Positions 19,368 to 63,404 of a stretch of 64,000 nt of DNA are shown piece after piece. The stretch comes from a virus. The translations under genes and the position numbers were made by a program. Below the pieces are notes generated by a model, which was given only the letters and a program-made list of their open reading frames with translations, did no database searches and was not told the origin of the DNA. How positions within the stretch are numbered: position 1 is the first letter of the stretch; each line of letters starts with the position of its first letter. The stretch lies in the IMG/VR virus record IMGVR_UViG_3300049324_000002, positions 1 to 64,000 of that record. One strand, given 5' to 3'.

Positions 19368-20864
19368 CTACACACCTCCAAGTAAAAAATCCGCTGCACC
19401 AGCACCGTCAAATGATGAACCGCCCCAAATATCCTCACTTCCACCACCATCAGAATTAACACGAGAAGACAAGTAACTCGTAGCATAGTCCATCCGAACA
19501 GGAATAGCATCACCACCCAGAAGAACATTACCGTCACGATTCTTCAACACACCCAAACGAAGATTCGCATACCGGCCATCCCTCGTACCATCAGGAGACA
19601 AAGCCAAAACCATATCAGGAGTATTCACAATCTCAGAAGTATCAGCAAGACCCCGCAAAATCACTTCACCAGTACGATCCATCTCTTCCTGAGCCGCACG
19701 ATTAATCTGCCATGGAGTAACAAGAGGTAACCCATTACCCTTATCATAATCAATAGCCAAATGCTTACAGCCCTTAATCAACCCAACCAACTCTTCACGC
19801 GTAGAATTCACCCTACGAGAATCACCAGACATCAACGCAACATAGTCAATATAAAGAACATCGATCTTCCGAGCCCGGGACCGCTGCCGCAACTGCGCAT
19901 CCAACGCAGCAACAGTATGCCCATGAGGCATCTGAGCCAACCACAACGACCCATCCAACCTAGCCAAATCCTGCACAACCAAAGCCATAAACTCAACATG
20001 CTCCGCAGGCAACTCACCACGCTTCAACAAATTAGAATCCAACCCATTCGGGATACTAAGATGCTCCCGCAACTCCTTAAACTTCGTAGCCCTAGAATGA
20101 TGCGCAACCAACCGCCACCGAACCGTATTACGAACAGTCTCAGAAGTAGCAAAATAAACATGCAACCCCTGCGCAGCAGCCGCGTGATAAGCCATATGCA
20201 CACAAGTATGCGACTTACCCACACCACTAGGCGCAGCCACCACAATCATCTCACCAGGACCAAACCCACCAGTAATAGCATCCAACTTATCAACACCGAC
20301 CAAAGGACGACGAGACCTATCCTCCGACTTCGCCGACCGATAAACCACCATCACATCCTTAGCCTCCTTGCGAATATCACCCGCAGGAGAATCATCCACC
20401 GCAATCTCAGCAGTAACCTCAGCAATACGATACGACGCCCACTCCCGCGCATCCGCAGCCCCAGACCACACCCGGCCACCATCCTCCTCAGTGACCGAAC
20501 CATTCAAAATCTCAGTAGCATCCCGCAACAAAGTAGTCGTCAACCACTGCTCACGATTCGCTCGCAACTGCCTAGCAGCCCACCGAGCATCAGAAGTAGA
20601 AGCGGACTCCGCGACCAACGCCGCATACGTCTCCCGCACCACCGCAGCAGTGCCAGCATCCACCCCAGAAACCAAATCCTCCACAGCAGAAGCAGTCAAC
20701 AAACCATTAGCCACAGAACGATAAGTCAAAACACCACGGAACAAAGAACGCAAAATAGGATCAACGAAATGATTCTCAGTAATCGAACGGGAAATTTCAT
20801 CAATCAACTGCGTATCATGGGTAAAAAGGGCAGTCAGAACTACCTTAGATGGATCCGAAGACAC
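19368..20864 (-). CDS. dnaB: DnaB-like replicative helicase
   Basis: AAPSGVGKS, YIDYVALM, WQINR, VLKNRDG. Confidence 0.9.
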   Translation of the reverse strand: MSSDPSKVVLTALFTHDTQLIDEISRSITENHFVDPILRSLFRGVLTYRSVANGLLTASAVEDLVSGVDAGTAAVVRETYAALVAESASTSDARWAARQLRANREQWLTTTLLRDATEILNGSVTEEDGGRVWSGAADAREWASYRIAEVTAEIAVDDSPAGDIRKEAKDVMVVYRSAKSEDRSRRPLVGVDKLDAITGGFGPGEMIVVAAPSGVGKSHTCVHMAYHAAAAQGLHVYFATSETVRNTVRWRLVAHHSRATKFKELREHLSIPNGLDSNLLKRGELPAEHVEFMALVVQDLARLDGSLWLAQMPHGHTVAALDAQLRQRSRARKIDVLYIDYVALMSGDSRRVNSTREELVGLIKGCKHLAIDYDKGNGLPLVTPWQINRAAQEEMDRTGEVILRGLADTSEIVNTPDMVLALSPDGTRDGRYANLRLGVLKNRDGNVLLGGDAIPVRMDYATSYLSSRVNSDGGGSEDIWGGSSFDGAGAADFLLGGV

Positions 20865-23170: not shown

Positions 23171-23781
23171 GTCGGCATGAGATGACTTGCGGCGAGTAGT
23201 CGTATCGAACTGACCAGCAACGGGCTCGGCGGGAGTCGCATAGTCACACGTATCGACGTGATCTGAAAGCGGCAAGTCAGCTTGGGGATGGCTGGAAATG
23301 ATCGCGACAGGAGTAGTCGAACCGATCCGGTCAGAACAGGCGCGAAGCGTGGGGATTAGTCAATCGAGTCGAGTGGACTTGTCGCGAATTGGGTTGTCTG
23401 ACCGAGACGAGTAGATACGGGTAGATACGTCAGACGGAATGGCAGCGAAATGCGTAGTCGAACGGAAAAGATCGGAACTGTCTCGGGTAGTCACATGACA
23501 GGAACAGACACGATGCGATTCGTCGGTGTCGATTGGACAGGCCCTGGCTCGACGTGTCTGAAAGCACTGCAGGGCATCGACTCGAAAGGAGTAGTCGGAA
23601 AGGACTTGAACTGCCGAGGAGGGACACGGGTAGTCGGAAAGATGTGACAGGAATGGGCACGCGTAGTCGACTTGACAAGCAATGCCGCGAAACGAGTAGT
23701 CGAACGATCCGATTAGAAGTGCCTCTGAAAGGCCCGGCGTAGAGTAGTCGTACGACATGACGAGAAGAGAAATGGTTAGTC
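23171..23781 (-). repeat. Array 1: about 17 units of GAC + 5-9 pentamers ending in C; putative guide-RNA array
   Basis: 18 GAC anchors with consensus GACTACTC; spacings 28-48 nt clustering at 3+5n. Confidence 0.88.
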
Positions 23782-23785
23782 AGTA

Positions 23786-23818
23786 CCCAGACAACTGGGG
23801 TCAGCACACATCATACCC
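23786..23818 (-). promoter_or_regulatory. Putative promoter (GGGTATGAT) and 5' hairpin for array 1
   Basis: Genome-wide promoter motif at 23811-23818, then CCCAG-TTGT-CTGGG hairpin just before the first GAC. Confidence 0.6.
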
Positions 23819-23821
23819 CAC

Positions 23822-24574
23822 TCACCCGGCCAACGGCAGATCCAACACCGACCTCAAAGACTTACGCAAAATATCTTGCGCTTCCTCACGTAAAACCTGA
23901 ATCCACATACCAGACCAACGACTAGCCACCGGATCCCGCGAAATCTCAGGAATAGCCTGCGCAACCTTCGAATCAGAAAGCTGGTAATAACAAGACAACA
24001 CCAACACGCAACGATGCAACGGGGGCAACGCCCGCACCGCCGACACCACCTCAGCACACAACGCCGACCGTAACGCCGTCCCCTCCACATCAAGAGGAAC
24101 AACGATCTGCTCAGCTTCCTCATAATCATCCAACGGAACAGGCACTCTCAACAAAGCTGAAAGAGCCCTATTCACATCCTCAACACTAATGCCAGTCCTA
24201 GATGATATAGACTGCGGCGAATCATAATCCCACGAAACATACAAATCCACACCCTTTAAACCAATCTCCTTCACCAACGCACGCTCAGCACGCGTAGCCG
24301 GATCAGAAGACCGCAACTCATCAATAATCGCACCAATAATACGACGAGTGGCATAAGTACTAAACCAAGACAAAGCAGTAGGCGTATACATTTCATAATC
24401 ATGTTCTCTACAATAATCAGGCCACCTCACAGCGGCCAACACTAAACCATTCAACGCCCACGAAATAACTTCATCGCGCTCATACCCATTTAACTTGCAC
24501 CACTCTTTGTGTGCAAGTGCTGTCGCGAGCCCAACACGATCAATCACAAGCTGTTGTTGCTCGACAGACAGCAC
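23822..24574 (-). CDS. FliA/WhiG-family RNA polymerase sigma factor
   Basis: FSTYATRRIIGAIIDELRSSD..TR region 2.4 signature; GTG at 24574 after GAGGAG. Confidence 0.8.
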   Translation of the reverse strand: MLSVEQQQLVIDRVGLATALAHKEWCKLNGYERDEVISWALNGLVLAAVRWPDYCREHDYEMYTPTALSWFSTYATRRIIGAIIDELRSSDPATRAERALVKEIGLKGVDLYVSWDYDSPQSISSRTGISVEDVNRALSALLRVPVPLDDYEEAEQIVVPLDVEGTALRSALCAEVVSAVRALPPLHRCVLVLSCYYQLSDSKVAQAIPEISRDPVASRWSGMWIQVLREEAQDILRKSLRSVLDLPLAG

Positions 24575-24593
24575 CGCACCACTCCTCAAACTC

Positions 24594-27353
24594 TCAGGAA
24601 CAACCAGACGTAGAACCACAATTCGAACAAACGAAACACACACCCGCAGCCTGCATAACCACACCACACGACGAACACAAAGGGTTATCCTGATGGTAAC
24701 CCTTAGCTACGGGTACCACTTCATCCAGGCCCGCTGCCACCCCAGAAGGCGCCTCAGACCGCTCCACCGTAGACAACACACCCAACCGATCACGCTGCTC
24801 ACGAGACAAATGATCCAACGCCAACCTACGGAACACATAATCCATAATAGACGTAGCCATACGGATTTCAGGATCATTCGTCATACCACGTGGCTCAAAC
24901 TGAGTGCCAACGAACTTCTCAACAAACACATCTAACGGCACACCATACTGCAAAGCAATCGATACTGAAATCGAGAACGCATCCAACAGCCCAGCCAACG
25001 TTGACCCCTGCTTACCCAACTTCAGGAAGATCTCCCCCGGCCCATTCCCCGGGTACGAACCCACCGTCAGATACCCCCCAGCACCCCCCACATCAAACGA
25101 CAGCGTCTCAGCCGGACGCCTCGAGGGCAGACGCTGCCGCACCGGCTGAACCACATGTGGCGACCCCTCAATAACACCAGACACAATCAAGTCAGGCTGA
25201 ATCACACCGCCAACGAGCTTACCGTCATCTACTTTCTTCACAGACAACGGCTGAGCAGCCTTCGAATTATCCCTATACACAGCAAGAGACTTCAACCCAA
25301 GACGCCACCCAGCCAAATAAACAGCCTCAATATCAGTGACAGTAGAATCCTCAGGCATATTGATGGTCTTCGAAATCGCACCACACAAGAAAGGCTGCAC
25401 CGCAGCCATCATCAACAAATGCCCATCAGAAGCAATCGAACGCTCACCAACAGCACAATCAAACACCTCGTAATGCTCCCACCTCAACGCAGGAGCACCA
25501 ACAACATGCCCATTCACAGCAACATAATCAACAACAGCCTCAACCTGCTCAGGCTCATAACCCAACGTCTGCAACGCACGAACAACAGACTTATTCACAA
25601 TCTCCATCGAACCACCATGCGCCAACTTCTTATGCTTCACCAAAGAAAAATCAGGCTCCACACCAGTCGTATCAGCATCCATCATAAAACTAATAGTGCC
25701 AGTAGGAGCGATCAAGCTGACCTGGGCATTGCGATAACCATGCACATCACCCAACTCCGCAGCATGACTCCACAAAGCCTGCGCCCGATCATAAAGAGTC
25801 GTATCCAACCCACCGACACGATCAGCACAAACAGTAGCAGCAGTATGCCTACACACAACATCACGATGCGCATCAGCATTACGAGCATAACCATCATAAG
25901 GACCAACAACCCGAGCCAACAACGCCGACTGATCCCACGCAGCCGCCGACATCAACGACGTAATCGACCCAGCCAACGCACGACCACCAACACTATCGTA
26001 CGCACGACCCATCGACATCAACAACGCACCCAAATTACAATAACCAATACCCAACTGACGATACCTACGAGACACCTCAGTAATCTTCGCAGTCGGGAAA
26101 TCAGCAAACGACACTGAAATATCCATAGCAGTGATAACCAACTTCACCGCAGCCTCAAACGCCTCGAACGAAAACCCGCCATCCTTAGTCATAAACTTCA
26201 ACAAATTAAGGCTAGCTAGGTTACAGCTCGAATTGTCCAAATGCATATACTCGCTACAAGGATTACTCGTAGTAATACGACCATCCTCAGGACACGTGTG
26301 CCACGCATTAATCGTGTCATCATACTGAATGCCAGGATCAGCACACTCATGAGCCGACTGCGCCATCGCCCGAAACAACTCACGAGCATCAATCGTGTCA
26401 ACAACAGACCCATCCAACCGAGCCCTCAACGCAAACCCCGAACCATCCTCCACCGCACGCATAAACTCATCAGACACCCGAACAGAATTATTAGCATTCT
26501 GATACTGCACAGAATTGATGTCGTCGCCACCCAAATCCATATCAAACCCTGCATCACGCAGGACCTTAATCTTCTTCTCTTCCCTAGACTTCAACTGCAC
26601 GAAATCAAGAATATCAGGATGATCTACATCCAAACAAACCAACTTCGCAGCACGCCGCGTAGAACCACCCGACTTAATAGCCCCAGCCGACGAATCCGCA
26701 CCACGCATAAAACTCGCTGGCCCGGACGCTGTACCACCAGACGACATCAACTCCTTACTAGAACGAATCCGAGAAAGATTCACACCAGACCCCGAACCGC
26801 CCTTAAAAATCAACCCCTCCTCTTTATACCAATCCAAAATCGAATCCATCGTGTCATCGACAGACAGCAAGAAGCAAGCACTCACCTGCTGCCGACCACG
26901 CGTCCCCACGTTAAACCACACCGGAGAATTAAACGCGAAAAACTGATGCAACAACAACCACGTCAACTCATCAGAAAAAACAATCGCATCTTCATCAGTA
27001 TTGAAATAACCAAACTCAACACCACGCGAAACATACGTACTCACCACACGATCAATCAACTGCTGCAAAGACCACTCACGAGCATCCGAACCCAACTGCC
27101 CCCGAAAATACTTACTCGCCACAATCTGCCGCGCCGACACCGACCACGAAGCCGGAAACTCCACACCACGCTGCTCGAAATTAACCGAACCATCCCGCCA
27201 ATTCAACAAAACAATATCAGAACGCTCCCACTTCACCTCCGAATACGGATGCTTACCCGCAGAAGTAAACAAACGGCTAACCTTCAAACCACCCTGACTA
27301 GAAACACCAGTAGTCACAACACAGACCCCATTCTCCCAAACACAGCGCTTCAA
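24594..27353 (-). CDS. nrdJ: Class II (B12-dependent) ribonucleotide reductase
   Basis: FNSPVWFN, QVSACF, SNPCSEY, IAPTGTISFMM, C-terminal CxxC...CxxC. Confidence 0.95.
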   Translation of the reverse strand: MKRCVWENGVCVVTTGVSSQGGLKVSRLFTSAGKHPYSEVKWERSDIVLLNWRDGSVNFEQRGVEFPASWSVSARQIVASKYFRGQLGSDAREWSLQQLIDRVVSTYVSRGVEFGYFNTDEDAIVFSDELTWLLLHQFFAFNSPVWFNVGTRGRQQVSACFLLSVDDTMDSILDWYKEEGLIFKGGSGSGVNLSRIRSSKELMSSGGTASGPASFMRGADSSAGAIKSGGSTRRAAKLVCLDVDHPDILDFVQLKSREEKKIKVLRDAGFDMDLGGDDINSVQYQNANNSVRVSDEFMRAVEDGSGFALRARLDGSVVDTIDARELFRAMAQSAHECADPGIQYDDTINAWHTCPEDGRITTSNPCSEYMHLDNSSCNLASLNLLKFMTKDGGFSFEAFEAAVKLVITAMDISVSFADFPTAKITEVSRRYRQLGIGYCNLGALLMSMGRAYDSVGGRALAGSITSLMSAAAWDQSALLARVVGPYDGYARNADAHRDVVCRHTAATVCADRVGGLDTTLYDRAQALWSHAAELGDVHGYRNAQVSLIAPTGTISFMMDADTTGVEPDFSLVKHKKLAHGGSMEIVNKSVVRALQTLGYEPEQVEAVVDYVAVNGHVVGAPALRWEHYEVFDCAVGERSIASDGHLLMMAAVQPFLCGAISKTINMPEDSTVTDIEAVYLAGWRLGLKSLAVYRDNSKAAQPLSVKKVDDGKLVGGVIQPDLIVSGVIEGSPHVVQPVRQRLPSRRPAETLSFDVGGAGGYLTVGSYPGNGPGEIFLKLGKQGSTLAGLLDAFSISVSIALQYGVPLDVFVEKFVGTQFEPRGMTNDPEIRMATSIMDYVFRRLALDHLSREQRDRLGVLSTVERSEAPSGVAAGLDEVVPVAKGYHQDNPLCSSCGVVMQAAGVCFVCSNCGSTSGCS

Positions 27354-27394: not shown

Positions 27395-29095
27395 TCACGC
27401 CGCGCTCAAAGCACCAACATCAGGACTAATAAACTGCAACATCTGAGCAGGCGACAGCTTCGCGTACATAGGATCATCCTCAGACCAAATCACACTAGCC
27501 AAAGCAGCCTCGACCTCCATCGCCCGAAGCTTCCTCTCCTCATGCGTATTAGACGCATAAAGACTATGCACATACACCGTCTTATAAGCACTACCAGCAC
27601 GACGAACCCGGCCCGCCAACTGAGTCATCCGAGCAGGATTAGGAATCTGATCCACATTCACCTGATGCCTAGCACACTGCAAATTCAGCGACTGCTCAAT
27701 AGCACACGTACCCACCAAAGCACGACACGTAGGATCATCCCAAAACCGCTCCGTCGCAGCACTCCGCCGCTTACGATCCCGATCCGCACCCCAATACCGC
27801 ACATGCCCAATCCCATTAGCATCCAACCGATTACACAATGCCTCTAACCCAGGACGATAATGAATGAACAAAACAGCTTTCTCATCCTCATCGCCCTCCT
27901 CCTCAGCCGCCCAGTCATTCAACAGCTTATCCACAATCCAATCAAACTTCACTGAAGCCCCAGGAGAATCACGGCCATCAATAACCGCTAAACTCTCACA
28001 AATCTGAGCCGCAGCCAGCCACTTAGCTTTAGCCTTCCCAAGCTCAAGCTCACCACCCTCCCCCAACACCTTCAACACACCACGCTGCAACTCGTCATAA
28101 CGAGCGCGCTGCTCGGGAAGCAAATCAAGAAACACATTATTGGGGATGATAAGTGGCATCTCAATGTCGTCAACATCCTTAGGAAGACGACGTAACACTC
28201 GAGGAGCAATCAACTCCTTAAACTCCCCAAGATGCTTATAACCCACCACCTCCATAACAGTACGAGTCTTCTTCTTACCAGTCTTCTGATCCCTACCAGT
28301 ATAAATAGTAGCTTTCTGCCTACGCAGATACCGGAGAATGAACGCGTCACGAGGACCGAACAACATCCGCGCCAGACCAATAGAATCCAAAAGATCGTAC
28401 AACTCCAAAAGCTTCTTCTGCAAAGGAGTCGCAGTCATCAACATCACCCGTGACGCCGACGTAGCCATACGCTTCACAGCCCACGACGTCTTATTATCAC
28501 AATTCCGTAGACAATCCACATCATCAATCACAAGATGATGAATCCCGAGACGCTCAATAATCTCAACATCCCGCAAAAACATCTGATGACCCACAACAGC
28601 TATATCCCACGGAAACGCATACAAATCAGAACGCTGATCCCGATCCCCATCAATCACCTCAGTAGTCAAACCAGGAATCGTACGACGCAACTCATTACGC
28701 CACTGCGTCAACGCAGCAGGCCGACACACCACCAACACCCGACCACCACCACGACGCGGATCCAACTCACCCGCCTGCGCAGCAAGAGCAATCGTCCCGC
28801 ACGCACTAAACGTCTTACCCAACCCAACAACATCCGCCAACAAACCCTTACGAATCAGAAAAAACCACGAAATAGCGACACGCTGATGTCGACGCAAAAT
28901 CACACCACAACGCCGACAAGAAACACACGGGACACCATCAGGAACATGCTTCTCACAAGGGTCGGAATTCCACAAATTCAAAACAGGTAGATTCACATCA
29001 TGTGCAGTACGCGCACGCTCCGCCGCTGCAGCTAAAGCCTGTGGATCCACACGATCCAGTGCCGATACCACAGAAAAACCTCCTCGAAAGGCCAC
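27395..29095 (-). CDS. SNF2-family helicase/ATPase
   Basis: LLADVVGLGKT, MTATPLQ, SLNLQ, QLAGRVRRAG. Confidence 0.85.
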   Translation of the reverse strand: MAFRGGFSVVSALDRVDPQALAAAAERARTAHDVNLPVLNLWNSDPCEKHVPDGVPCVSCRRCGVILRRHQRVAISWFFLIRKGLLADVVGLGKTFSACGTIALAAQAGELDPRRGGGRVLVVCRPAALTQWRNELRRTIPGLTTEVIDGDRDQRSDLYAFPWDIAVVGHQMFLRDVEIIERLGIHHLVIDDVDCLRNCDNKTSWAVKRMATSASRVMLMTATPLQKKLLELYDLLDSIGLARMLFGPRDAFILRYLRRQKATIYTGRDQKTGKKKTRTVMEVVGYKHLGEFKELIAPRVLRRLPKDVDDIEMPLIIPNNVFLDLLPEQRARYDELQRGVLKVLGEGGELELGKAKAKWLAAAQICESLAVIDGRDSPGASVKFDWIVDKLLNDWAAEEEGDEDEKAVLFIHYRPGLEALCNRLDANGIGHVRYWGADRDRKRRSAATERFWDDPTCRALVGTCAIEQSLNLQCARHQVNVDQIPNPARMTQLAGRVRRAGSAYKTVYVHSLYASNTHEERKLRAMEVEAALASVIWSEDDPMYAKLSPAQMLQFISPDVGALSAA

Positions 29096-35782: not shown

Positions 35783-38700
35783 TCACGAGAACATCCCCAT
35801 CAAAGACAAAGAACGCATACGAGCCGCCGCCGAGTCAGAAGCAGTCTCAGCAACCGGATTATAGATGTTCGTATTAATGACAACATCCCTAGATGAGTCA
35901 CTACTAGAAGCGCCATGCACCACCGTAGAAGATGACCCGGCCGACAACGCCGCATCCAACCCGGCCCGCACAGCACCCCCCAACGCAAACCGCTGCACCG
36001 ACGCACGCCCCACAGGCGAGAACAAGTCAGCAGCATGCACCCCACCTGACGCGTTCAACCTCGTCAACAAATCAAGGCCAAGTGCCTCCGACACACCCCT
36101 ACTCAAAACAAACTCACCCGGCGTCAACATCGCCGGAACCGAATCACCCCCACCCGGCCCAGAAGCAGTAACCACACCACCATCCGCGTAACCGTGACCC
36201 TTCCACCCCGCAGCCAACGAACCATACGCAGCCACAGTATACTTAATAGCAGAAGTAATATTAGCCATAGGATCAACCGACACACCATACGAATAAGGAC
36301 CCTTATCAAACCTAGCATCCTTGTAAGCCGCGTACGTGCCAGCGATAACCTGCATCAAACCAACAGAAGGATGACCAGCCTGCCAGTTCGAATCCCACTG
36401 ATTAACCACAGTAGGATTACCACCAGACTCAGTGCTCATCTGCATCAACAAGGCACCGATATTCTCAAGAGCCTGATTCTCAGCAGTCAGTGCCGCTAAC
36501 CCAGTGGCCCTCCACTGCTCAACGCCAGCCCCACCACCCTGCAACAACCCACTCGCACCAGCATTAGCCAACGCCGCTGCAGCGGCAGCCGCCCGCGCCG
36601 CATAATCCTTAGCCTTCTCAATAACCGCGTCAATAACTTTAGAAGGTATAGCCTTCATAACATCAGTGAAGCCACCTGACCCGGGCACACGCCCAGCATC
36701 ATCAGACACCCCACCAAACAACGTACGAACAGACCCAACAGGATCCGACACCATCGAAGCAATCGCGCCCGTAACATCACCAACGACACCACCACCAGCA
36801 AACCTATTCCCACCCGCTGGCTTAGCACGACCACCAGAATAAAACTCATTCGCCTTGTAAACAAAGTCAGGACCCAGTCCCCGAACAGCCTCAGGAACGA
36901 GTACTCCCTCTCCTGGCGAGAGGACCACTGGTACCGAGTCCCGACCCGGAGCATAGCCAGGGAGAACACCACCCTCAGCCAGCAACGCAGCAGGCGCTAG
37001 CTTCCCCAACCCGAACACACCAGCAAGACCATTCCACAACGGAACAATCCCACGATTGTAAACAACGTCAATCACAAAGTTAACAGGACCCTTAGCAATA
37101 TCACCTAACCTGTTCCAAGCACCCTCAATAGCACCAATAACATTCGTAAAAGTATCACCAAGAAGATGTACCACACCCATAAAGCCATTGAAGATAGGCA
37201 AGAGGATGTTATTGTAAATGCCTGTGAAAGCACCACCAATGAAATCTAGAGCAGGCTTAATAGCATTATTCCACAACCACAAAGCAGCGTTACCTGTATC
37301 CTGGAAAGCTCTGACCAAAGAATCAATCACAGGCTTAACAAGAGTATTCCACAAGAAACCAAACGCAGCCCCCATGAAATCAAGAGCAGGCTTAATAGCA
37401 TTAACCCACAACCACGTACCAGCATCACCTAGCTGCTGTAACCCCTCCAAAAACAAGTCAACAATAGGCTTGATAACATTAGTCCACACAGCAGTGAAGA
37501 AAGCACCAACAGCATCCAACGCACCAATAACAATATTACGGAACGTCTCAGAATGCGTCCAAGCATAAATAAACGCAGCAACCAAAGCTGCAATCGCAAG
37601 AACAACCAACCCGATAGGGTTAGCATCCATCGCAGCATTCAACAACCACTGCACCGCAGCCCACGCAGCAGTAGCACCCTTAACAATCGCAGACCCCGCA
37701 GCAAACAACAACTGCTTAGCATTAGCAGCTAAAGTCTCAACACCCAACTTAATGTAACTACCTGCAGCGCTAGCAACAGCACCCGCAACCTGCAAAGCAG
37801 ACCCAACAGCCTTACCTAACCCAGACGCTGCACTACCAGCCGCACTAGCAACAGCACCCGACAACGTAGAAGCAACACCAGACAACGCAGACTTAGCAGC
37901 CTCAGCAAGAGGCTTAATCTTCGCCAAACCAGCCGAAATGACTTCCGGTGCAAACGACCCAGCAATAGAACCTGCAATACCACCAACCGCTGCACCAGTA
38001 TCCCCACCCACCGCCTGGCCGATCGCTGCCCCGGCCAGACCACCACCAATAGACCCCGCGATCCCACCGGCCACCCGCCCCACAGCCACCGCGCCACGGC
38101 CCACAGAGCCCGCCACCGCGCTCAACCGCGACGGCGCAGCAGGTGCCGAGCGAGGAGTACCAGGAGGATAAAAAGGCGCAGCCCCAGCAGGAACAGCAGT
38201 CTGAACAGGCGACGCTGCAGGAGTCCCCGGCTTGAACACCGACATCGCCGCGCCGCCCACCGCAGCACCGGCACGCGCCGTAATCGTACGAGGAGTAGCA
38301 GTCTCACCCGCAACAGCCGACTTCACACCACCAACAAAACTCGTAGGAGACGCCTTAACCGGAGCAGCCTCACCAGCCAAATAAGAAGCAGACCGCCCAG
38401 CCAACGCGTTAATCCCACCAGCAACACTAGACAAACCAGTAATAGAACCTATCAGCTTGATTGCTTTCAACCCACCAGCAATCGCCAACAACCACACACC
38501 AAGCTCAGCAATATAAGGAACCGAAGTGATAGCCTGCAAAACAGAAGCAAAAATATTCAATATAGTAACGAAAGCTGACAAACCACCTCCGCCTCCAGCA
38601 TTAACCAAGTTAGTAAGAACATCAGCAAGCTTCGAAATAATCTCAATAAGCTGCTGACCAATAGAAAGTGAAACATCCTTCATTGCAGCAGCAAGACGCT

Positions 38701-41032
38701 GGAACGCAGGAACCAAATTATCTCTAACCGCAACCAGCAACTCATAAGTTGTCTTAGAAGCACCAGTCCCAATAATAGACGTAGCCAACATACCAAGCAA
38801 CTGCAAAATGATACGGATCGAAGGCTCCATATCATCGAAATACTTCTTTAGCTTACCAAAACCCTCAGCAGTGTGTAGGTAATCATTAGTCTTCTTCGTC
38901 AACTCCTCAAACGACGTCAACAACCGCTCACCCAAAGGAGCCGCTGCTGCGAAAACCTGATAAAGAATGCCACCAACATTCTTCAGGATGTTACCAAGAA
39001 GAGATAGTATATCTTTAACTTTAACAAAGAAATCAGTAAGCTGACCAGTATCACGAGCAGCCTGAGTAGTCGCTTTAATATGCTCAGACCAAGCCAACGT
39101 CAGCTTGGTCAACCAGTCCAACAGCGGAACAGCCGCCATAGACAAGTTTTCAATAACGCTAAGAAGATTAAGGAGTATGTGCCCAAAGTTATCTACAAGC
39201 TTTGGACCTTCCCCAGTACCAAACGAAAGGAAGTCCTTCTGAAAACTGTTAAGCTCAGCAGCACCGTCATTAGCAAGAGAACTAAGAACAGCGCCAAAAG
39301 CTTTAATAGAAGGTATTGCTACTGAGTCAACCAGAGGAATGACTGCTTTAATCGCAGTCTCTAACCCGGGCAGGAACGCGCCCTCAGCGGCGCCAGTAAT
39401 CTTATCAACCAACGGGATAAGAGACTGCAAAAAATAAACAAACTGCTGGCCAGCAGGAGCCAAATGCGACATTGCAGTAGCAAGAGCAGTCTGTGCCGCA
39501 TTCTGCTTATTCGCTGCACTCGAAACCTGCTCAAGCGCAGCCTCTAACGAACGCTGCGCCTGCGTAACCGACTGATCCGCAGACAACATTCTATCCGCAG
39601 CAGTAACCCGTGCATCCGCAGCATTCTCAACTGCTTGTGTCTCAGCATCCTTAGCGCTCGCTACCTGATTAGAAGCATTAACTACATTAGCTGCTCCATT
39701 AACACCATCAGCCTGCGCTTTAGTATTATCTTCAGTAGCTCTCGAAGATGAAATCCTTGCTTCGGCTAAACGCTGCTCAGCCTCAGCAACCTGCAAATCA
39801 GCTTTACGCTTATCCAAAGCCGTAGAAGTAGCACTAGCATTAACTGCAGCTTGATTCTGCTGTGCATCAATAAGAGCAATCTCAGCAGACTCGACCGACA
39901 GCCTAGCGTCGATCTCAGCATTCTGCATATCAATGAGATCGCGTACAGCTTTCTCACGCTCAGCATTCAAACTAGCAAGAGCAGTCTGAACATCCTTATG
40001 CGCCTGCGCTAAAGCTTTATCTGCAGCCGCTACATCTTTCTCACCCTGTACCTCAGCCTGCGCTCGCGAACGCTCCGCATTAGCCAGAGCATCCTGCGCA
40101 TTAGCCAACCCACGCGTGGCCGACGCAGCCGCCTGAGCATCAGACGCAGCCGACTGAGCAGACTGAGACTGTGCACTCTGTAAAGCCTTTAAGGCAGTAC
40201 CAATACCCTTAAAAGCCAATAATGCTGTGCCCACTGCCCCGGCCGCCGCTAAAGCAGCAGGACCCAACGCAGCAATCGCACCCGCAGCAGGCGCAGCAGC
40301 ACCCAAAATGCCGATCAGCGCGCCACCCAGCGCAACGATCGAACCAATCAGCCCACCAATAAAAGCCGGTAGAGCCGGGGCAACCATCAACAATAGAGTA
40401 CGCAAAAACTTAGACGACGAAGAATCCGCGTCCTTAGAAGAACTACTATAATTCTTCAGCTCAGATGAAAGAGAGGCGAAATACCCCTTAGACTGCTGAG
40501 CCGACGATCCAGTACGACGATTAGAATCACCAAGCTTATCTGAAGAACGTGCAGCATCGTCAGTATCCCGAGCCACATCCTTTAACGCAGCAGAATGCGC
40601 CTTATGTGCAGTAGTCGCATCTTTAGCAGCATTCTTCTCTTTACCAAGAGCAGTAGAATGCCCATCACTACTAGACGAGGCATCCTTCTCAGAATTAACC
40701 AAATTGGCAAGACTCGCCGACAACTTCTGAACCATATCAAGCTTAGAACTAGCAGCCTGCTGCTCTTTATTCAAAGCAATAGTATGCTTGTCCGCAGACT
40801 TCGTTGCAGCTTCCTCACCGCGCTGCAACGAAGTAGTTAACTTATCAGTCTCACCACGCAACTTAGACTGAGCAGTCGCCATCTTCGAAACATTGGACTC
40901 AAACGCCTTCGAAGATGCTGGGTCAGAAGCCAACGACTTTAATGCCGTAAGCTTCGCAGCAGTCTTATCAACCTCACTATTCAATGAAGCGAAATCGGCG
41001 ACAGCCTTAAAAACCGCTGTAGCGGAAGGCAC
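35783..41032 (-). CDS. Tape measure protein with lytic transglycosylase domain
   Basis: 1749 aa, Ala-rich helical repeats; ESGGNP...GLMQ...DPMANI. Confidence 0.92.
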   Translation of the reverse strand: MPSATAVFKAVADFASLNSEVDKTAAKLTALKSLASDPASSKAFESNVSKMATAQSKLRGETDKLTTSLQRGEEAATKSADKHTIALNKEQQAASSKLDMVQKLSASLANLVNSEKDASSSSDGHSTALGKEKNAAKDATTAHKAHSAALKDVARDTDDAARSSDKLGDSNRRTGSSAQQSKGYFASLSSELKNYSSSSKDADSSSSKFLRTLLLMVAPALPAFIGGLIGSIVALGGALIGILGAAAPAAGAIAALGPAALAAAGAVGTALLAFKGIGTALKALQSAQSQSAQSAASDAQAAASATRGLANAQDALANAERSRAQAEVQGEKDVAAADKALAQAHKDVQTALASLNAEREKAVRDLIDMQNAEIDARLSVESAEIALIDAQQNQAAVNASATSTALDKRKADLQVAEAEQRLAEARISSSRATEDNTKAQADGVNGAANVVNASNQVASAKDAETQAVENAADARVTAADRMLSADQSVTQAQRSLEAALEQVSSAANKQNAAQTALATAMSHLAPAGQQFVYFLQSLIPLVDKITGAAEGAFLPGLETAIKAVIPLVDSVAIPSIKAFGAVLSSLANDGAAELNSFQKDFLSFGTGEGPKLVDNFGHILLNLLSVIENLSMAAVPLLDWLTKLTLAWSEHIKATTQAARDTGQLTDFFVKVKDILSLLGNILKNVGGILYQVFAAAAPLGERLLTSFEELTKKTNDYLHTAEGFGKLKKYFDDMEPSIRIILQLLGMLATSIIGTGASKTTYELLVAVRDNLVPAFQRLAAAMKDVSLSIGQQLIEIISKLADVLTNLVNAGGGGGLSAFVTILNIFASVLQAITSVPYIAELGVWLLAIAGGLKAIKLIGSITGLSSVAGGINALAGRSASYLAGEAAPVKASPTSFVGGVKSAVAGETATPRTITARAGAAVGGAAMSVFKPGTPAASPVQTAVPAGAAPFYPPGTPRSAPAAPSRLSAVAGSVGRGAVAVGRVAGGIAGSIGGGLAGAAIGQAVGGDTGAAVGGIAGSIAGSFAPEVISAGLAKIKPLAEAAKSALSGVASTLSGAVASAAGSAASGLGKAVGSALQVAGAVASAAGSYIKLGVETLAANAKQLLFAAGSAIVKGATAAWAAVQWLLNAAMDANPIGLVVLAIAALVAAFIYAWTHSETFRNIVIGALDAVGAFFTAVWTNVIKPIVDLFLEGLQQLGDAGTWLWVNAIKPALDFMGAAFGFLWNTLVKPVIDSLVRAFQDTGNAALWLWNNAIKPALDFIGGAFTGIYNNILLPIFNGFMGVVHLLGDTFTNVIGAIEGAWNRLGDIAKGPVNFVIDVVYNRGIVPLWNGLAGVFGLGKLAPAALLAEGGVLPGYAPGRDSVPVVLSPGEGVLVPEAVRGLGPDFVYKANEFYSGGRAKPAGGNRFAGGGVVGDVTGAIASMVSDPVGSVRTLFGGVSDDAGRVPGSGGFTDVMKAIPSKVIDAVIEKAKDYAARAAAAAAALANAGASGLLQGGGAGVEQWRATGLAALTAENQALENIGALLMQMSTESGGNPTVVNQWDSNWQAGHPSVGLMQVIAGTYAAYKDARFDKGPYSYGVSVDPMANITSAIKYTVAAYGSLAAGWKGHGYADGGVVTASGPGGGDSVPAMLTPGEFVLSRGVSEALGLDLLTRLNASGGVHAADLFSPVGRASVQRFALGGAVRAGLDAALSAGSSSTVVHGASSSDSSRDVVINTNIYNPVAETASDSAAARMRSLSLMGMFS

Positions 41033-60567: not shown

Positions 60568-61713
60568 TTAGTTACGAACCATGGCAGCCATCTCAGAAGC
60601 AGTCAACCCCCCTTTAGCCTTCACCTGACCAACCCCACCCGGGCACAACGCCTGCCCCAACAACGTCACCACCAAATCCAAAGCAGCATGTGCATCAGAA
60701 GATGGCTGTATCCTAGAATAATACTCCCACACCACACGCATCCCGGCCACACACCTAGCCGAGTCAAGGCGACTAGCCAACACCTTCTCGTCAGCAGACG
60801 GGGGAGGCGACAACGACGACCCAGACTCAGACATCGTCAACACCAGCAAACGCTTCAACGTCGACACCACCGAGCCCACCACCTCACGAGGCCCCGGGAG
60901 GACGCCCAGCGCCACGCCAGCCGCCTCAAACGCACCCACATAGTCCGGGCCAGCGACCAACGCCCGCACCACAGCCAACCCATGATCCTCAATACCTAGT
61001 AACTGTGTAAGCTGATCAGAAGTACGTACATGCACAAGAGCAGCCTGCTCAGCCATCATCACAGCATTACGAGCCACCCCGCGAGAACGCGTCGCGATAG
61101 CAGTGCAAAGTTCCGAGCTGAAACTAAATCCCTCAGCATCAGAGATGTCACGAATCCGCTGCGCCAACTCCGCCTCAGGAATCCTCGTAAACTCGCAACT
61201 AAAGCAACGAGAAACTACAGTATCCTTAACCTTATCAAGGTCAGTAGTAACCAACATAAAAACAACATTAGGAGGAGGCTCCTCCAAAACCTTCAACAAA
61301 GCATCAAACCCAGTATCAGAAAGAGCGTGCACCTCATCCAAAATAATAACACGATAACGACCCTGCGCCGCATAACGAGCCCGCTCACGCAACGCTCGCA
61401 TATCATCAGCCTTACCATGTGACGCAGCATCAATCTCCGTCACATCAGAAGACCGACCCTCAGCAGTCAACTCACAAGTAGAACAAACACCACACGGCCG
61501 CTCATTAACATCATCATGCTCACAATTCAAAGCAGCAGCGAGAACCCTAGCCATAGTAGTCTTACCAGACCCGAGTGAGCCATGAAAAAGATAGGCCCCT
61601 CGAACCTCATCTGCCTGTATCATGCGCTGTAACACAAGCCGCGCCAATCTCTGACCAACAACATCAGAAAATCGGCGCGGCCTGTATTTCAGGGCTAAAG
61701 CTTTCTGGCTCAT
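60568..61713 (-). CDS. dnaX: DNA polymerase III gamma/tau clamp-loader ATPase
   Basis: LKYRPRRFSDVVGQ, GSGKTT, CGVCSTC, EIDAAS, LDEVH, SRC. Confidence 0.93.
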   Translation of the reverse strand: MSQKALALKYRPRRFSDVVGQRLARLVLQRMIQADEVRGAYLFHGSLGSGKTTMARVLAAALNCEHDDVNERPCGVCSTCELTAEGRSSDVTEIDAASHGKADDMRALRERARYAAQGRYRVIILDEVHALSDTGFDALLKVLEEPPPNVVFMLVTTDLDKVKDTVVSRCFSCEFTRIPEAELAQRIRDISDAEGFSFSSELCTAIATRSRGVARNAVMMAEQAALVHVRTSDQLTQLLGIEDHGLAVVRALVAGPDYVGAFEAAGVALGVLPGPREVVGSVVSTLKRLLVLTMSESGSSLSPPPSADEKVLASRLDSARCVAGMRVVWEYYSRIQPSSDAHAALDLVVTLLGQALCPGGVGQVKAKGGLTASEMAAMVRN

Positions 61714-61736: not shown

Positions 61737-62507
61737 CTATTCCTCCGAATCCCCAGGCTTAGCCTTCTTAGCACCAGCCTTAGGGGTGGTCGTCTTCGGA
61801 GGCTTCGTCAACAGATCCCATTGCGTGACCTTGTACCGGCCAAACCCACCAGACCGAGAAGCGCCAACACCCTGCTCCTGACCAGTCAGCCACACAATCT
61901 CCCAGAAACCATCACAAGCCGCATCAAAATCGAAGTCAGTAATAACCTGAAACTTCAATACAGCAGGAGTCACATGCTCCTTATAATGCGGGGCAGAACC
62001 ATACTGAGTATGCACGAACTGCTGCACAATACCAGAAGCAGTAAGCACGTTCTTGCCATCATCAGGATTAAAGATATGAACCTTATCATCCGTCACCATA
62101 ATATGCTCAGCAACGAACCCCTTAGCAAACTTACTCGTCACACCCCACGAGCGAAGCGGCACGTTCCCGGCCGCGACGGCGACCATCACAGCCTCTTTCA
62201 GCGCAGCCTTCACCTGACGACCATCAATGTACAGGCCCTCAGTATCTTTCTTAAACCCAGTGAAGTGCTTAGCCGAACCAACCAGCTTCACAGCCTCCTC
62301 AGCAGACACCGCGCGCTCAGCCATCGTCTCAGCAACAGCCCGACGAACAGCATCGTCTTTATCCTCAATCTTGGTACGCAACCAAGACTCCGCGACCTTC
62401 TCATCAGTAGGAATACCACCAGCAATCGAATCCACCTGAATCGTGGCCGCGTAACGCCACTTCCAAACCCTATCCTGTGCTGAAGCGAAAACAGAAGTAG
62501 CCGACAT
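61737..62507 (-). CDS. Stand-alone Cas7/RAMP-superfamily protein
   Basis: LYIDGRQVKAALKEA (cf. RAMP YIPGSSLKGALR) and C-terminal G-rich loop GVGASRSGGFGRY. Confidence 0.8.
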   Translation of the reverse strand: MSATSVFASAQDRVWKWRYAATIQVDSIAGGIPTDEKVAESWLRTKIEDKDDAVRRAVAETMAERAVSAEEAVKLVGSAKHFTGFKKDTEGLYIDGRQVKAALKEAVMVAVAAGNVPLRSWGVTSKFAKGFVAEHIMVTDDKVHIFNPDDGKNVLTASGIVQQFVHTQYGSAPHYKEHVTPAVLKFQVITDFDFDAACDGFWEIVWLTGQEQGVGASRSGGFGRYKVTQWDLLTKPPKTTTPKAGAKKAKPGDSEE

Positions 62508-62597
62508 CAGATATGCTCCTTGTTATTTGTTGTCGAATCAACCCCGGACAAGCCGAGGCACAGCACCGTCACCATTGACGACAAACCCCTTATACCG

Positions 62598-62846
62598 AGA
62601 GATCGATATGAGTTGAATGAACAGACAAGTCGAGATGAATTGAAACGACTCGGCTAGAAAAGTCGGCGTTGAATAGTATCGAGTTGACGGGTGAAGTCGG
62701 TAGGGAGGCGACCCGATCAGGAGCGACATGAGTGGTCGATGCGAAGGGAAGCGAATAGAGAAGTCGGTGATGTATAGACTAGCAGCGAAATGACTTGGCT
62801 TGTCGAATCGACTTGATCTGATATGAACCGTCTTGAGAAGTCGAAA
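62598..62846 (-). repeat. Array 2: seven GAC-anchored pentamer-periodic units upstream of the RAMP gene
   Basis: Anchors at 62629, 62662, 62696, 62735, 62763, 62802, 62840; e.g. GAC TTCTC AAGAC GGTTC ATATC AGATC AAGTC GATTC. Confidence 0.88.
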
Positions 62847-63404
62847 CTAAGAAGCAACAATAGAAGTACGGCCCTGAATCGAACTGTACATTCTATCAAT
62901 ATCCTCTTCAGAGAAGACAGCACCCACCGTCTGCTGGCCAACCCGGGACGCCAGCGCGAGCAAGAACGCCTCCTCCAACAAAGCAGTATGAGCTGAACGT
63001 GAATACCTAGCAGCCGCGAAATTCAAATCATCACGATTCATGTCAAGCAAACGACGCTGAGTATTCTCACCATCAACAGCGTAACGTACGGTCTTCCAAT
63101 GACTAATCGCACTGGAATCCCCGCCCGTAAACTTGCGAGCATCTGCCGCAAACGCAGACCGTGCCGCATTCGACCGAGCCCGCGCTCGAGCGGAGGCAAG
63201 CCGATGCTTAATCTGCTCAGCCAAGAACGTACTAGAATGCTCCAACAGCCAACCAGTAAGCAACTCAGGATCAGTTTTCTTCAACCTACTGACAAGTGTC
63301 CACGAAGCAACAGAAGGAATCAAATCCGACTCAGCATCTAAAAGAATATCGGTAATCATTTTAGACATCTCAGCAGAGTAATTCCTGCCTGGATCTTCAT
63401 CCAC
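62847..63404 (-). CDS. Hypothetical protein directly upstream of array 2
   Basis: 185-aa ORF whose stop codon lies 4 nt before the first GAC. Confidence 0.7.
   Translation of the reverse strand: MDEDPGRNYSAEMSKMITDILLDAESDLIPSVASWTLVSRLKKTDPELLTGWLLEHSSTFLAEQIKHRLASARARARSNAARSAFAADARKFTGGDSSAISHWKTVRYAVDGENTQRRLLDMNRDDLNFAAARYSRSAHTALLEEAFLLALASRVGQQTVGAVFSEEDIDRMYSSIQGRTSIVAS

What the first reader, a model, noticed from the sequence alone, without database searches (positions are those of the whole stretch)
23171..23781. Array 1: about 17 guide-like units with lengths quantised at 3+5n nt
GTC anchors (plus strand) fall at 23171, 23199, 23243, 23276, 23316, 23359, 23396, 23429, 23457, 23490, 23522, 23556, 23594, 23633, 23666, 23699, 23747 and 23779. 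The spacings are 28, 44, 33, 40, 43, 37, 33, 28, 33, 32, 34, 38, 39, 33, 33, 48, 32. Ten of 17 are exactly 3+5n, six are off by one, and one is off by two. Between anchors G recurs every 5 nt (e.g. gtc gactt gacaa gcaat gccgc gaaac gagta gtc) while the other bases differ in every unit. This is not a simple tandem repeat, not CRISPR and not codon-periodic. It is G-rich on a strand that is otherwise A/C-rich, which implies selection. A promoter motif (23811-23818) and a 5' hairpin (23786-23799) suggest a dedicated minus-strand transcript acting in trans with the RAMP gene.
Basis: partly seen in the sequence, partly recalled or inferred. Interest (0 to 1): 0.9.

Follow-up and report, generated by a model that had tools for sequence, protein, structure and literature searches.

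The report
Phage VIPR-type five-base guide array
This 610-base non-coding stretch is a real array of about 17 short units written in five-base steps, and it is most likely guide RNA for the phage's own Cas7-like protein, which makes it an unusual example of the CRISPR-related VIPR systems first described in 2026 rather than a new kind of system.

Summary
All 18 GTC anchors and their spacings are as stated. G recurs every 5 nt (lag-5 z = 8.3 against shuffles). The phase is locked to each anchor: G sits at -5/-10/-15/-20/-25 in 100/88/83/83/72% of units.

The same grammar occurs in Array 2 (window 62585-62860) and in a 4-kb array outside the window, about 135 units in all.

Array 2 lies directly upstream of a 256-aa gene (61737-62507, minus strand). 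Its model matches Cas7/Csm3 (Z 10) and it carries a RAMP glycine loop.

In 56 of 69 related viral and actinobacterial loci the same array grammar lies near the homologous gene, nearly always on one strand. A helical partner gene is present in 42 of 51 loci.

Notes from this scan on other genomes pointed me to the 2026 VIPR preprints: a Vipr RAMP protein with guide RNAs of fixed-trinucleotide/NN pentamers that silence rival phages. I read them and checked the phiSUSP1 reference locus.

This locus fits the kind but departs from the characterised type in four ways:
- The motif is G-A-(A/C)/NN, not GGY/NN.
- The array is inverted relative to the gene.
- Each unit has only 5-8 pentamers and no structured tail.
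- The partner gene is unrelated.

Transcription, the RNA strand and the targets remain untested.

The parts
23171..23781 (.). Array 1: 17 units bounded by 18 GTC anchors (+ strand). Each unit has a loose start (GTC-R-R-A...) followed by 5-8 phased pentamers G-A-(A/C)-N-N that run into the next anchor, usually G-A-n-T-A-GTC. On the gene-sense (minus) strand this reads GAC + UACUC + (N-N-K-U-C)n. The strand of the functional RNA is unresolved.
23784..23835 (.). Boundary element shared only by Arrays 1 and 3. It comprises a hairpin CCCAG-N4-CTGGG (23786-23799) and ATCATACCCC (23810-23819; on the minus strand a -10-like TATGAT). It is either a minus-strand promoter plus 5' hairpin, or a 3' end hairpin for a + strand transcript.
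   Evidence: The 38-nt match at genome 85105-85140 is 89% identical. Both motifs occur only at these two places in the 146-kb genome. The consensus promoter scan did not call it.
62585..62860 (.). Array 2: 6-7 units of the same grammar (anchor mostly AAGTCG on the + strand). It starts 5 nt after the stop codon of the partner gene and ends about 80 nt before the Cas7-like gene.
61737..62507 (-). Vipr-like (Cas7-like RAMP) gene, 256 aa, single copy in the phage. Conserved motifs are YI(D/E)GRQ(V/L)KAA(L/I)KEA and the glycine loop G(V/I)GASRS(G/Q)GFGRY.
62847..63404 (-). Conserved partner gene (185 aa, all-helical, no known fold or family), in the position of a VIPR accessory (vap) gene.

Best explanation
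Array 1 is one of three guide arrays of a VIPR-type system carried by this roughly 146-kb actinophage-like virus. The other two are Array 2 in the window and a 4-kb array at genome 81.1-85.1 kb.

Inferred mechanism, by analogy with the published systems:
1. The array is transcribed as a long precursor and cut at or near the GTC/GAC marks into short RNAs.
2. Protomers of the phage's single Cas7-like (Vipr-like) protein line up along each RNA, one per pentamer. They hold the fixed trinucleotide (G-A-M on the + strand, which is K-U-C on the minus strand) and expose the two variable bases.
3. The exposed dinucleotides together specify a gapped DNA target, most likely in rival phages or other mobile elements, which is then bound and silenced.

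This footprint explains why unit lengths step by 5 nt (3 + 5n).

Shown here: the grammar, its anchor-locked phase, the Cas7-like fold, and the co-occurrence of array, gene and partner gene over wide divergence.

Inferred only: transcription, the RNA strand, processing, protein binding and targets.
For: Grammar:
- + strand pentamer position 3 is A or C in about 75% of cases and positions 4-5 are near-uniform. That is a fixed trinucleotide plus NN.
- Unit lengths in the 4-kb array peak at 28, 33 and 38.
- In 967 units from 56 other loci the peaks are at 28/33/38/43/48/53, with 44% at 3 mod 5.

Protein:
- The AlphaFold model has pLDDT 77.
- Its best PDB matches are all Csm3 or Cas7: Foldseek E 6e-6 and probability 1.0, VIA-align Z 10.0 over 168 residues.
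- There are weak Csm3, Cas6 and type IV Cas7 profile hits.
- hhalign against the phiSUSP1 195-aa protein beside that phage's GGY/NN arrays (assigned as Vipr by position and length; the record calls it hypothetical) is weak (E 0.075, probability 0.75%) but colinear over 128 columns. It aligns both hallmark motifs, including GVGDWRPRFGRF with GVGASRSGGFGRY.

Association:
- The sense-strand array pattern is strongly enriched within 700 nt upstream of the gene in most of 57 viral loci, for example 18 found against 0.16 expected.
- It is present upstream in 12 of 12 actinobacterial genome loci.
- In total there are 1297 sense hits against 217 antisense.
- Reciprocal scan by DNA pattern: 30 of 39 hits are real arrays. 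At least 22 of these have the gene on the contig. All 9 chance hits lack it.
- The partner gene is present in 42 of 51 loci.
- A distant family member (profile E about 1e-37) also has the array.

Evolution:
- In a 98%-identical relative, the anchors (0 changes in 24 positions) and the invariant C (2 in 55) are conserved while other positions change. The array as a whole diverges at the third-codon-position rate.
- Between phages whose genes differ by 16-28% at third positions, the arrays are no more alike than unit-permuted arrays.

Literature: VIPR is a phage-borne Vipr RAMP plus vap gene plus pentamer guide RNAs. It comprises seven types, includes non-canonical motifs and staggered arrays, and forms a filament that sequesters the fixed trinucleotide.
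Against: - There is no expression or binding data.
- The motif is not GGY, and units have only 5-8 pentamers (10-16 specifying bases) against 9-16 in characterised guides. Single units would therefore be poorly specific.
- There is no structured 3' tail. Neither strand folds better than shuffles (z +0.9 and +0.4).
- Arrays are oriented opposite to the reference system relative to the gene.
- The partner protein shows no DNA-binding fold and no likeness to the gene in the Vap1 position of phiSUSP1.
- Decoding the NN bases with the published 1-nt-skip rule against 3 Mb of related phage DNA gave only a weak excess: 60 of 222 near-perfect best hits against 44-51 in eight controls.
- Sequence homology to a bona fide Vipr is weak.
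Confidence: 0.7

Rival explanations
1. The arrays are protein-binding scaffolds or cis-acting leaders rather than DNA-targeting guides. The Cas7-like protein coats the untranslated RNA in 5-nt steps in order to control translation or read-through of the gene that follows each array, including its own gene. The variable bases carry no information.
For: - Every array in this phage sits directly upstream of a gene on the same strand.
- In relatives the array typically ends 30-50 nt before the start codon, next to the ribosome-binding site.
- In the closest pair the array diverges at about the neutral rate.
- No convincing targets were found.
Against: - The reference systems with the same architecture are shown to be programmable guides.
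- Arrays also lie downstream of the gene, or kilobases away.
- A 4-kb leader is hard to justify.
- Between moderately diverged phages, arrays turn over faster than third codon positions.
Confidence: 0.13
2. The arrays are decoys. They are guide-like RNA or DNA that soaks up the Vipr proteins or guides of competing phages, or other host RNA-binding factors such as Rho, which binds YC-rich, G-poor RNA. On this reading they do not direct the phage's own protein.
For: - The scale is very large (about 135 units, 3.4% of the genome).
- The gene-sense RNA would be C-rich and G-poor, with UC every 5 nt.
- VIPR systems are reported to target one another.
Against: - The arrays co-occur tightly with the phage's own Cas7-like gene and partner gene.
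- Small prophages carry only 4-15 units beside the gene.
Confidence: 0.08
3. The array is a DNA-level element, for example iterons of a replication origin, a partition or packaging site, or a zone of primase recognition sites (GTC). It would be read on double- or single-stranded DNA and would be unrelated to the RAMP gene.
For: - Array 1 lies in the replication and nucleotide-metabolism region, with RNR and SNF2 helicase upstream and DnaB downstream.
- Array 2 lies next to dnaX.
- GTC is strongly over-represented.
Against: - The only conserved neighbours across 59 loci are the Cas7-like gene and its partner, not replication genes.
- Orientation relative to the gene is fixed.
- There are no inverted repeats or AT-rich unwinding region.
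- The same grammar is explained by the published RNA system.
Confidence: 0.04

Closest known systems
VIPR systems, type II of Escherichia phage phiSUSP1 (Vipr + vap1 + vrRNAs); bioRxiv 10.64898/2026.04.26.720920 and 10.64898/2026.04.26.720927
   Same: - It is phage-borne.
- It has one small RAMP protein with a glycine loop plus one accessory gene, flanked by long non-coding stretches.
- The RNA is written in 5-nt repeats of a fixed trinucleotide and two hypervariable bases.
- There is no CRISPR array.
- The variable content turns over quickly and no self-targeting is seen.
   Different: - The fixed trinucleotide is G-A-(A/C), or G-G/A-N in GC-rich relatives, not GGY.
- There are 5-8 pentamers per unit against 9-16.
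- Units abut with only a GTC/GAC mark. In phiSUSP1 each guide has its own promoter-like upstream stretch and an approximately 40-nt structured tail.
- The G-rich strand is antisense to the gene here and sense in phiSUSP1.
- There are about 135 units in three arrays against four guides.
- The partner protein is unrelated to the gene in the Vap1 position of phiSUSP1.
Non-canonical VIPR arrays (GAC/NN, CAC/NN, WGT/NN, TGH/NN) and 'staggered' arrays; bioRxiv 10.64898/2026.10.21.760802 and fig. S18 of the discovery preprint
   Same: - The period is 5, with a fixed trinucleotide other than GGY, next to a Vipr-like fold.
- In staggered arrays the end of one guide marks the start of the next, as the abutting units here suggest.
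   Different: - Those clusters are described as about 10 repeats per array. Here the runs are 5-8 repeats, punctuated for up to 4 kb.
- I could not see the figures or tables, so I cannot say whether this actinophage clade is among the 664 loci or 21 clusters.
Class 1 CRISPR effector backbones (Csm3/Cmr4/Cas7 filaments on crRNA)
   Same: - The predicted fold of the protein is the same.
- Protomers are taken to line up on RNA with a fixed footprint, so RNA lengths are quantised, as type III crRNAs are in 6-nt steps (established knowledge; review PMC11127173).
   Different: - The footprint is 5 nt, not 6.
- Binding would be sequence-specific to the repeat rather than sequence-independent.
- There are no identical repeats of 23-50 nt.
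- No other RAMP gene is found in the genome.
Type IV-B CRISPR-derived Csf complex (PMC7937560)
   Same: It is a reduced system on a mobile element. A Cas7-like filament plus a small helical partner assembles on RNA that does not come from a CRISPR array, without a nuclease.
   Different: Type IV-B has no dedicated array and binds heterogeneous RNA. Here a dedicated, grammar-bearing array accompanies the gene. The helical partner gave no match to Cas11.

Membership tests
VIPR | Small RAMP protein (RRM core, glycine-rich loop, thumb) encoded alone, not within a cas operon | tested here: met
   - The model matches Csm3/Cas7 (Foldseek E 6e-6; Z 10.0, rmsd 4.8 over 168 residues).
- The G-loop G(V/I)GASRSxGFGRY is invariant in the family.
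- The gene is single-copy and Pfam finds no other RAMP in the genome.
VIPR | Protein belongs to the Vipr lineage rather than to Cas5/6/7 | tested here: inconclusive
   - hhalign of the family profile against the 195-aa protein at the phiSUSP1 locus gives E 0.075 and probability 0.75%, but is colinear over 128 columns with both motifs aligned.
- tblastn against GenBank phages did not reach phiSUSP1.
- No phylogeny was made.
VIPR | Guide region of tandem 5-nt repeats: a conserved trinucleotide alternating with a hypervariable dinucleotide | tested here: met
   - + strand positions 1/2/3 are G 73-100%, A 50-76% and A-or-C about 75%.
- Positions 4-5 are near-uniform.
- 175 different pentamers occur among 468.
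VIPR | Canonical GGY fixed trinucleotide | tested here: not met
   The motif is G-A-(A/C) here and G-(G/A)-N in GC-rich relatives. The preprints allow 'a related consensus' and list non-canonical motifs, so this excludes the canonical type, not the kind.
VIPR | Each guide has 9-16 repeats capped by a conserved structured 3' tail (type II) | tested here: not met
   - Units have 5-8 pentamers and only a 3-8-nt conserved mark.
- Neither strand folds better than shuffles.
- One hairpin is present per array, at one end only.
VIPR | Minimal two-gene locus (vipr + accessory vap) on a virus or provirus, flanked by long non-coding stretches | tested here: met
   - The partner gene family is present in 42 of 51 loci with enough upstream sequence, and it is the only conserved neighbour.
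- The loci are IMG/VR contigs and actinobacterial prophage-like regions.
- The partner has no detectable DNA-binding fold and no likeness to the phiSUSP1 gene in the Vap1 position.
VIPR | Array RNAs are expressed and co-purify with the protein | not testable with these tools
The complex predictor was unavailable and takes no RNA.
VIPR | Variable dinucleotides decode, with one skipped base between them, to sites in rival mobile elements and not in the phage's own genome | tested here: inconclusive
- There was no excess in all-unit counts against the pooled related-phage and own-genome set.
- Own-genome matches were no better than controls under two other pairing models.
CRISPR-Cas | Array of near-identical direct repeats of about 23-50 nt separated by unique spacers | tested here: not met
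   Tandem Repeats Finder and the repeat finder give only degenerate 16-27-nt families at 63-87% identity. The shared part is about 8-11 nt.
CRISPR-Cas | Adaptation and effector genes (cas1, cas2, large subunit, Cas5/Cas6) near the array | not tested
   Only the neighbours were scanned, and they gave RNR, SNF2 helicase, a sigma-like protein, DnaB and DnaX. A whole-genome scan with the RAMP family found nothing. cas1 and cas2 were not searched.

The most novel reading that the evidence does not exclude
This actinophage clade (841 protein clusters at 50% identity) would be a distinct VIPR type.
- Its code is re-specified. Either the protein reads a C-based repeat (N-N-K-U-C) on the gene-sense RNA, or the guides are made antisense to the operon.
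- Kilobase precursors are cut at GAC/GTC marks into over 100 very short guides (5-8 pentamers) per phage.
- Such short guides could only reach useful specificity by acting in numbers or with the unknown helical partner.
Probability: 0.35. Interest if true: 0.7.

Novelty: new variant of a known kind. Interest (0 to 1): 0.5.

Why it matters
VIPR was described only in 2026, from enterobacterial and Pseudomonas phages. It is proposed as the viral ancestor of CRISPR effectors and as a new programmable DNA-recognition code.

This locus shows the same logic in a large, mostly uncultured actinophage and prophage clade, with these differences:
- a different fixed trinucleotide
- the opposite array orientation
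- far shorter guides
- arrays of up to 4 kb
- a partner protein of unknown fold

Working out which strand is used would show how flexible the protein-RNA code is. Working out how 10-16 specifying bases can suffice would show what sets the code's specificity. It would also give Streptomyces-type hosts a native small programmable silencer.

Tried and rejected
- Megablast of the region against GenBank phages found no match.
- Rfam found nothing in the arrays.
- Coherent Fourier power at period 5 failed as an array detector, because the phase shifts at every anchor. Normalised autocorrelation failed in GC-rich relatives. I replaced both with an anchor-plus-phased-C pattern.
- A direct search for close relatives of the protein in viral contigs found none. 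The profile search then found 57 loci.
- Pfam, NCBIfam and PHROGs give no family for the Cas7-like protein or its partner.
- Partner protein: Foldseek gave nothing at E below 2 and the wide structural search gave Z at most 4.7, so no Cas11-like or DNA-binding assignment can be made.
- I tested contiguous and three-base-per-pentamer pairing models for targets in the phage's own genome and in 2.4 Mb of related phages. Neither did better than shuffled controls.
- Before finding the VIPR preprints I considered a TRAP-like ring reader, RecT-type annealing proteins, Rho loading sites and T7-type primase sites (GTC). These leads came from memory and are not needed once the Cas7-like gene association is seen.
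- My literature searches on Cas7-like, orphan Cas7 and 5-nt periodicity did not find VIPR. The name came from earlier notes of this scan.

Full report
**What is there.** The window is the first 64 kb of a 146,490-bp IMG/VR virus record. All long genes lie on the minus strand, and the + strand is A/C-rich throughout, with GC skew about -0.25 and AT skew about +0.3. The finding lies in a 670-bp gap. Upstream in gene sense is a sigma-factor-like gene (23822-24667), preceded by a class II ribonucleotide reductase and an SNF2 helicase. Downstream is a small membrane-protein ORF that starts at about 23149.

All 18 GTC coordinates and all 17 spacings are correct, and 10 of 17 spacings are 3 mod 5. 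Independently of any choice of anchors, G autocorrelation peaks at lags 5, 10 and 15 (z = 8.3, 5.6, 4.6 against dinucleotide shuffles) and is depressed at other lags. Relative to the anchors, G occupies -5, -10, -15, -20 and -25 in 100, 88, 83, 83 and 72% of units, and A occupies the next base in 44-72%. The stretch is 33% G against 19% elsewhere. It is not a tandem repeat, not an Rfam family and not coding.

**Two more arrays.** A scan of the window and then of the whole genome found the same signal at 62585-62860 and in a 4-kb block at genome 81.1-85.1 kb. In the 4-kb block, 127 anchors give a consensus G-A-n-T-A-G-T-C-R-R-A. Spacings peak at 28, 33 and 38. The phase is sharp 5' of the + strand anchor (G 100/97/85/83/73%) and blurred 3' of it. 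Pentamer position 3 is A or C in about three quarters of cases and positions 4 and 5 are near-uniform. The unit of the code is therefore a semi-fixed trinucleotide plus two free bases. Arrays 1 and 3 share a boundary element, a 5-bp hairpin plus ATCATACCCC, that occurs nowhere else in the genome. Array 2 lacks it and begins 5 nt after the stop codon of the preceding gene.

**The associated gene.** Array 2 ends about 80 nt upstream of a 256-aa ORF (61737-62507, minus strand) that has no Pfam or NCBIfam family.
- It has 188 homologues in the 90% clusters and 841 clusters at 50% identity. Most are from viral contigs and Actinomycetota: Streptomyces, Nocardiopsis, Actinomadura, Streptosporangium, Streptacidiphilus and others.
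- An alignment shows two invariant motifs, YIEGRQLKAALKEA and GIGASRSxGFGRY. The second has the RAMP glycine-loop pattern.
- The AlphaFold model (pLDDT 77, pTM 0.73) matches only Cas7-family chains at the top of the PDB lists. These are Csm3, type VII Cas7, III-D, Cas7-11 domains, Cmr4 and type IV Csf2, with Foldseek E down to 6e-6 and Z up to 10.0.
- Weak profile hits to Csm3, Cas6 and type IV Cas7 fall on the same two motifs.

**Gene and array travel together.**
- In a Nocardiopsis prophage whose protein is 51% identical, the 425-bp gap upstream of the gene is an array of GAC + TACCC + (NNNCC)n units of 33-52 nt.
- Across 57 IMG/VR loci the pattern GAC-(NNNNC)x4 on the gene-sense strand is enriched by one to two orders of magnitude in the 700 nt upstream of the gene. 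It usually ends 30-110 nt before the start codon, and some arrays lie just downstream.
- All 12 actinobacterial genome loci show an array upstream.
- Sense hits outnumber antisense hits 1297 to 217.
- Pooled, 967 units from 56 loci have lengths peaking at 28, 33, 38, 43, 48 and 53.
- The reverse test started from the DNA pattern alone and gave 39 stretches. Thirty are real arrays. At least 22 of these have the gene on the same contig, and most of the rest abut contig ends or lie on incomplete fragments. The nine chance matches all lack the gene.
- Three loci have the gene but no adjacent array.
- The only other conserved neighbour is a roughly 180-aa helical protein upstream of the array (window 62847-63404), present in 42 of 51 loci. 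It has no recognisable fold or family.

**Evolution.**
- A metagenomic relative with a 98% identical protein has a colinear Array 2 that is 9.2% diverged. This equals the third-codon-position rate of the flanking genes (7-13%), against 2.3% in the leader after the array.
- The changes spare the anchors (0 of 24) and the invariant C (2 of 55) and fall mostly on the other positions. This sample is small.
- Between phages whose genes differ by 16-28% at third positions, the arrays differ in length and are no more alike than unit-permuted arrays.

**What it is.** My own literature searches found nothing closer than type IV-B and other reduced CRISPR derivatives. Earlier notes of this scan on other genomes named VIPR systems. 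I treated that as a lead and read the preprints.
- The discovery paper describes phage-borne loci with one small RAMP (Vipr), one accessory gene (vap) and guide RNAs of 9-16 GGY/NN pentamers with a 3' tail.
- The NN bases recognise double-stranded DNA with one skipped base between them.
- The natural targets are satellites and prophages.
- There are seven types that use GGY/NN 'or a related consensus', and they include staggered arrays.
- The structural paper shows Vipr protomers forming a filament that sequesters each fixed trinucleotide and presents the NN bases.
- A third preprint reports 21 clusters with other fixed trinucleotides, such as GAC/NN and CAC/NN, next to Vipr-like folds.

I checked the reference locus myself. 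In phiSUSP1 (KT454805.2) two small minus-strand genes at 28.0-29.1 kb are flanked by gaps. On the gene-sense strand these gaps read GGTTG GGTCT GGTGT and so on, followed by a tail that begins GGGTAGTTAGTC. The family profile aligns weakly (E 0.075, probability 0.75%) but colinearly with the 195-aa phiSUSP1 protein beside those arrays. The record annotates it only as hypothetical, so I assign it as Vipr by position and length. Both hallmark motifs are included in the alignment. The partner protein is unrelated to the second phiSUSP1 gene, in the Vap1 position.

**How this locus differs, and what is open.**
- The fixed trinucleotide is G-A-(A/C), or G-(G/A)-N in GC-rich relatives.
- Units carry only 5-8 pentamers and abut one another, with no structured tail.
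- The phage holds about 135 units.
- The G-rich strand is antisense to the genes, whereas in phiSUSP1 it is the gene-sense strand.

There are therefore two possibilities. In this clade the guides may be made from the strand opposite to the operon. That keeps a G-based code and the order 'tract, then GTAGTC'. Alternatively the gene-sense RNA is used and the protein reads a C-based repeat. Operon context and the -10-like TATGAT favour the second. Likeness to the reference favours the first. I put them near even.

**Target tests.** Because the target is double-stranded DNA, the two variable positions are the same under either strand reading, so I could test the published decoding rule.
- Against 3 Mb of related phage DNA, only the one-base-skip rule gave more near-perfect best hits than controls: 60 of 222 against 44-51 in eight controls. 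The 0-, 2- and 3-base rules gave none. This is about two standard deviations, so it points the right way but proves nothing.
- All-unit counts against the pooled related-phage and own-genome set showed no excess under any skip rule.
- Own-genome matches were no better than shuffled controls under two other pairing models, three bases per pentamer and contiguous.
- With 10-16 specifying bases per unit, chance matches dominate. A proper test needs the large databases used in the preprint.

**Verdict.** The finding is real. It is best read as a VIPR-type guide array that serves the Cas7-like gene 39 kb away in the same window. The kind has been known since 2026, and this scan has met the same C-rich clade on other genomes. 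The features of this clade make it a variant worth an experiment rather than a new kind. No RNA or binding evidence could be obtained here.

Noticed in passing
L003:5200-5271 (genome 85199-85270), minus strand: A tRNA gene (Rfam 45.6 bits; ARAGORN missed it) lies immediately upstream, in gene sense, of the boundary element of the 4-kb array. The reference phiSUSP1 locus has nothing similar.
   Followed up: no
window 1-64000 and the whole 146-kb record: Strand asymmetry is extreme. Essentially all long ORFs are on the minus strand, and the + strand has GC skew of -0.1 to -0.4 and AT skew of +0.1 to +0.4 throughout. The arrays are the only long stretches where G exceeds C.
   Followed up: partly
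window 19368-20864, 24594-27353, 27395-29095, 60568-61713 (all minus strand): The phage encodes a DnaB-like helicase, a class II (B12) ribonucleotide reductase with a TSCPD domain, an SNF2-family helicase and a DnaX clamp-loader subunit. The Cas7-like gene sits directly upstream of dnaX.
   Followed up: partly
window 23822-24667, minus strand: A 281-aa protein has weak FliA/WhiG-type sigma-factor matches (NCBIfam E 3e-11, below cut-off; PHROG 351). It ends one base before the boundary element of Array 1 and could drive phage-specific promoters.
   Followed up: no
window 37239-37488: A 135-nt tandem repeat (1.9 copies, 74% match) lies inside the 1749-aa ORF 35783-41032.
   Followed up: no
L065:4001-5120 (Microcystis phage Mae-JY09, PP395641.1, 37713-38830): This is the only GenBank phage with a homologue of the Cas7-like protein (29.5% identity, annotated hypothetical). 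A GC-rich array of CGACTACCC-type units follows the gene to the end of the record.
   Followed up: partly
L121:27860-27885 (phiSUSP1) compared with window 23194-23201 and similar anchors: The conserved tail of the phiSUSP1 guides begins GGGTAGTTAGTC, which resembles the + strand anchor GAGTAGTC here. It may be chance, or a remnant of a shared tail that would argue for the + strand as the RNA.
   Followed up: no
L039, L053, L061 (IMG/VR contigs): Three homologues of the Cas7-like gene have coding-like sequence rather than an array directly upstream, and no array within the fetched 10 kb on either side.
   Followed up: partly
L004:15562-15771: In a 79%-identical relative of this phage, a 69-aa gene with the Acb2/Tad1 hairpin family (an anti-CBASS/Thoeris sponge) lies 5 kb downstream of the Cas7-like gene, next to the amidase. 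The matching place in the window was not checked.
   Followed up: no
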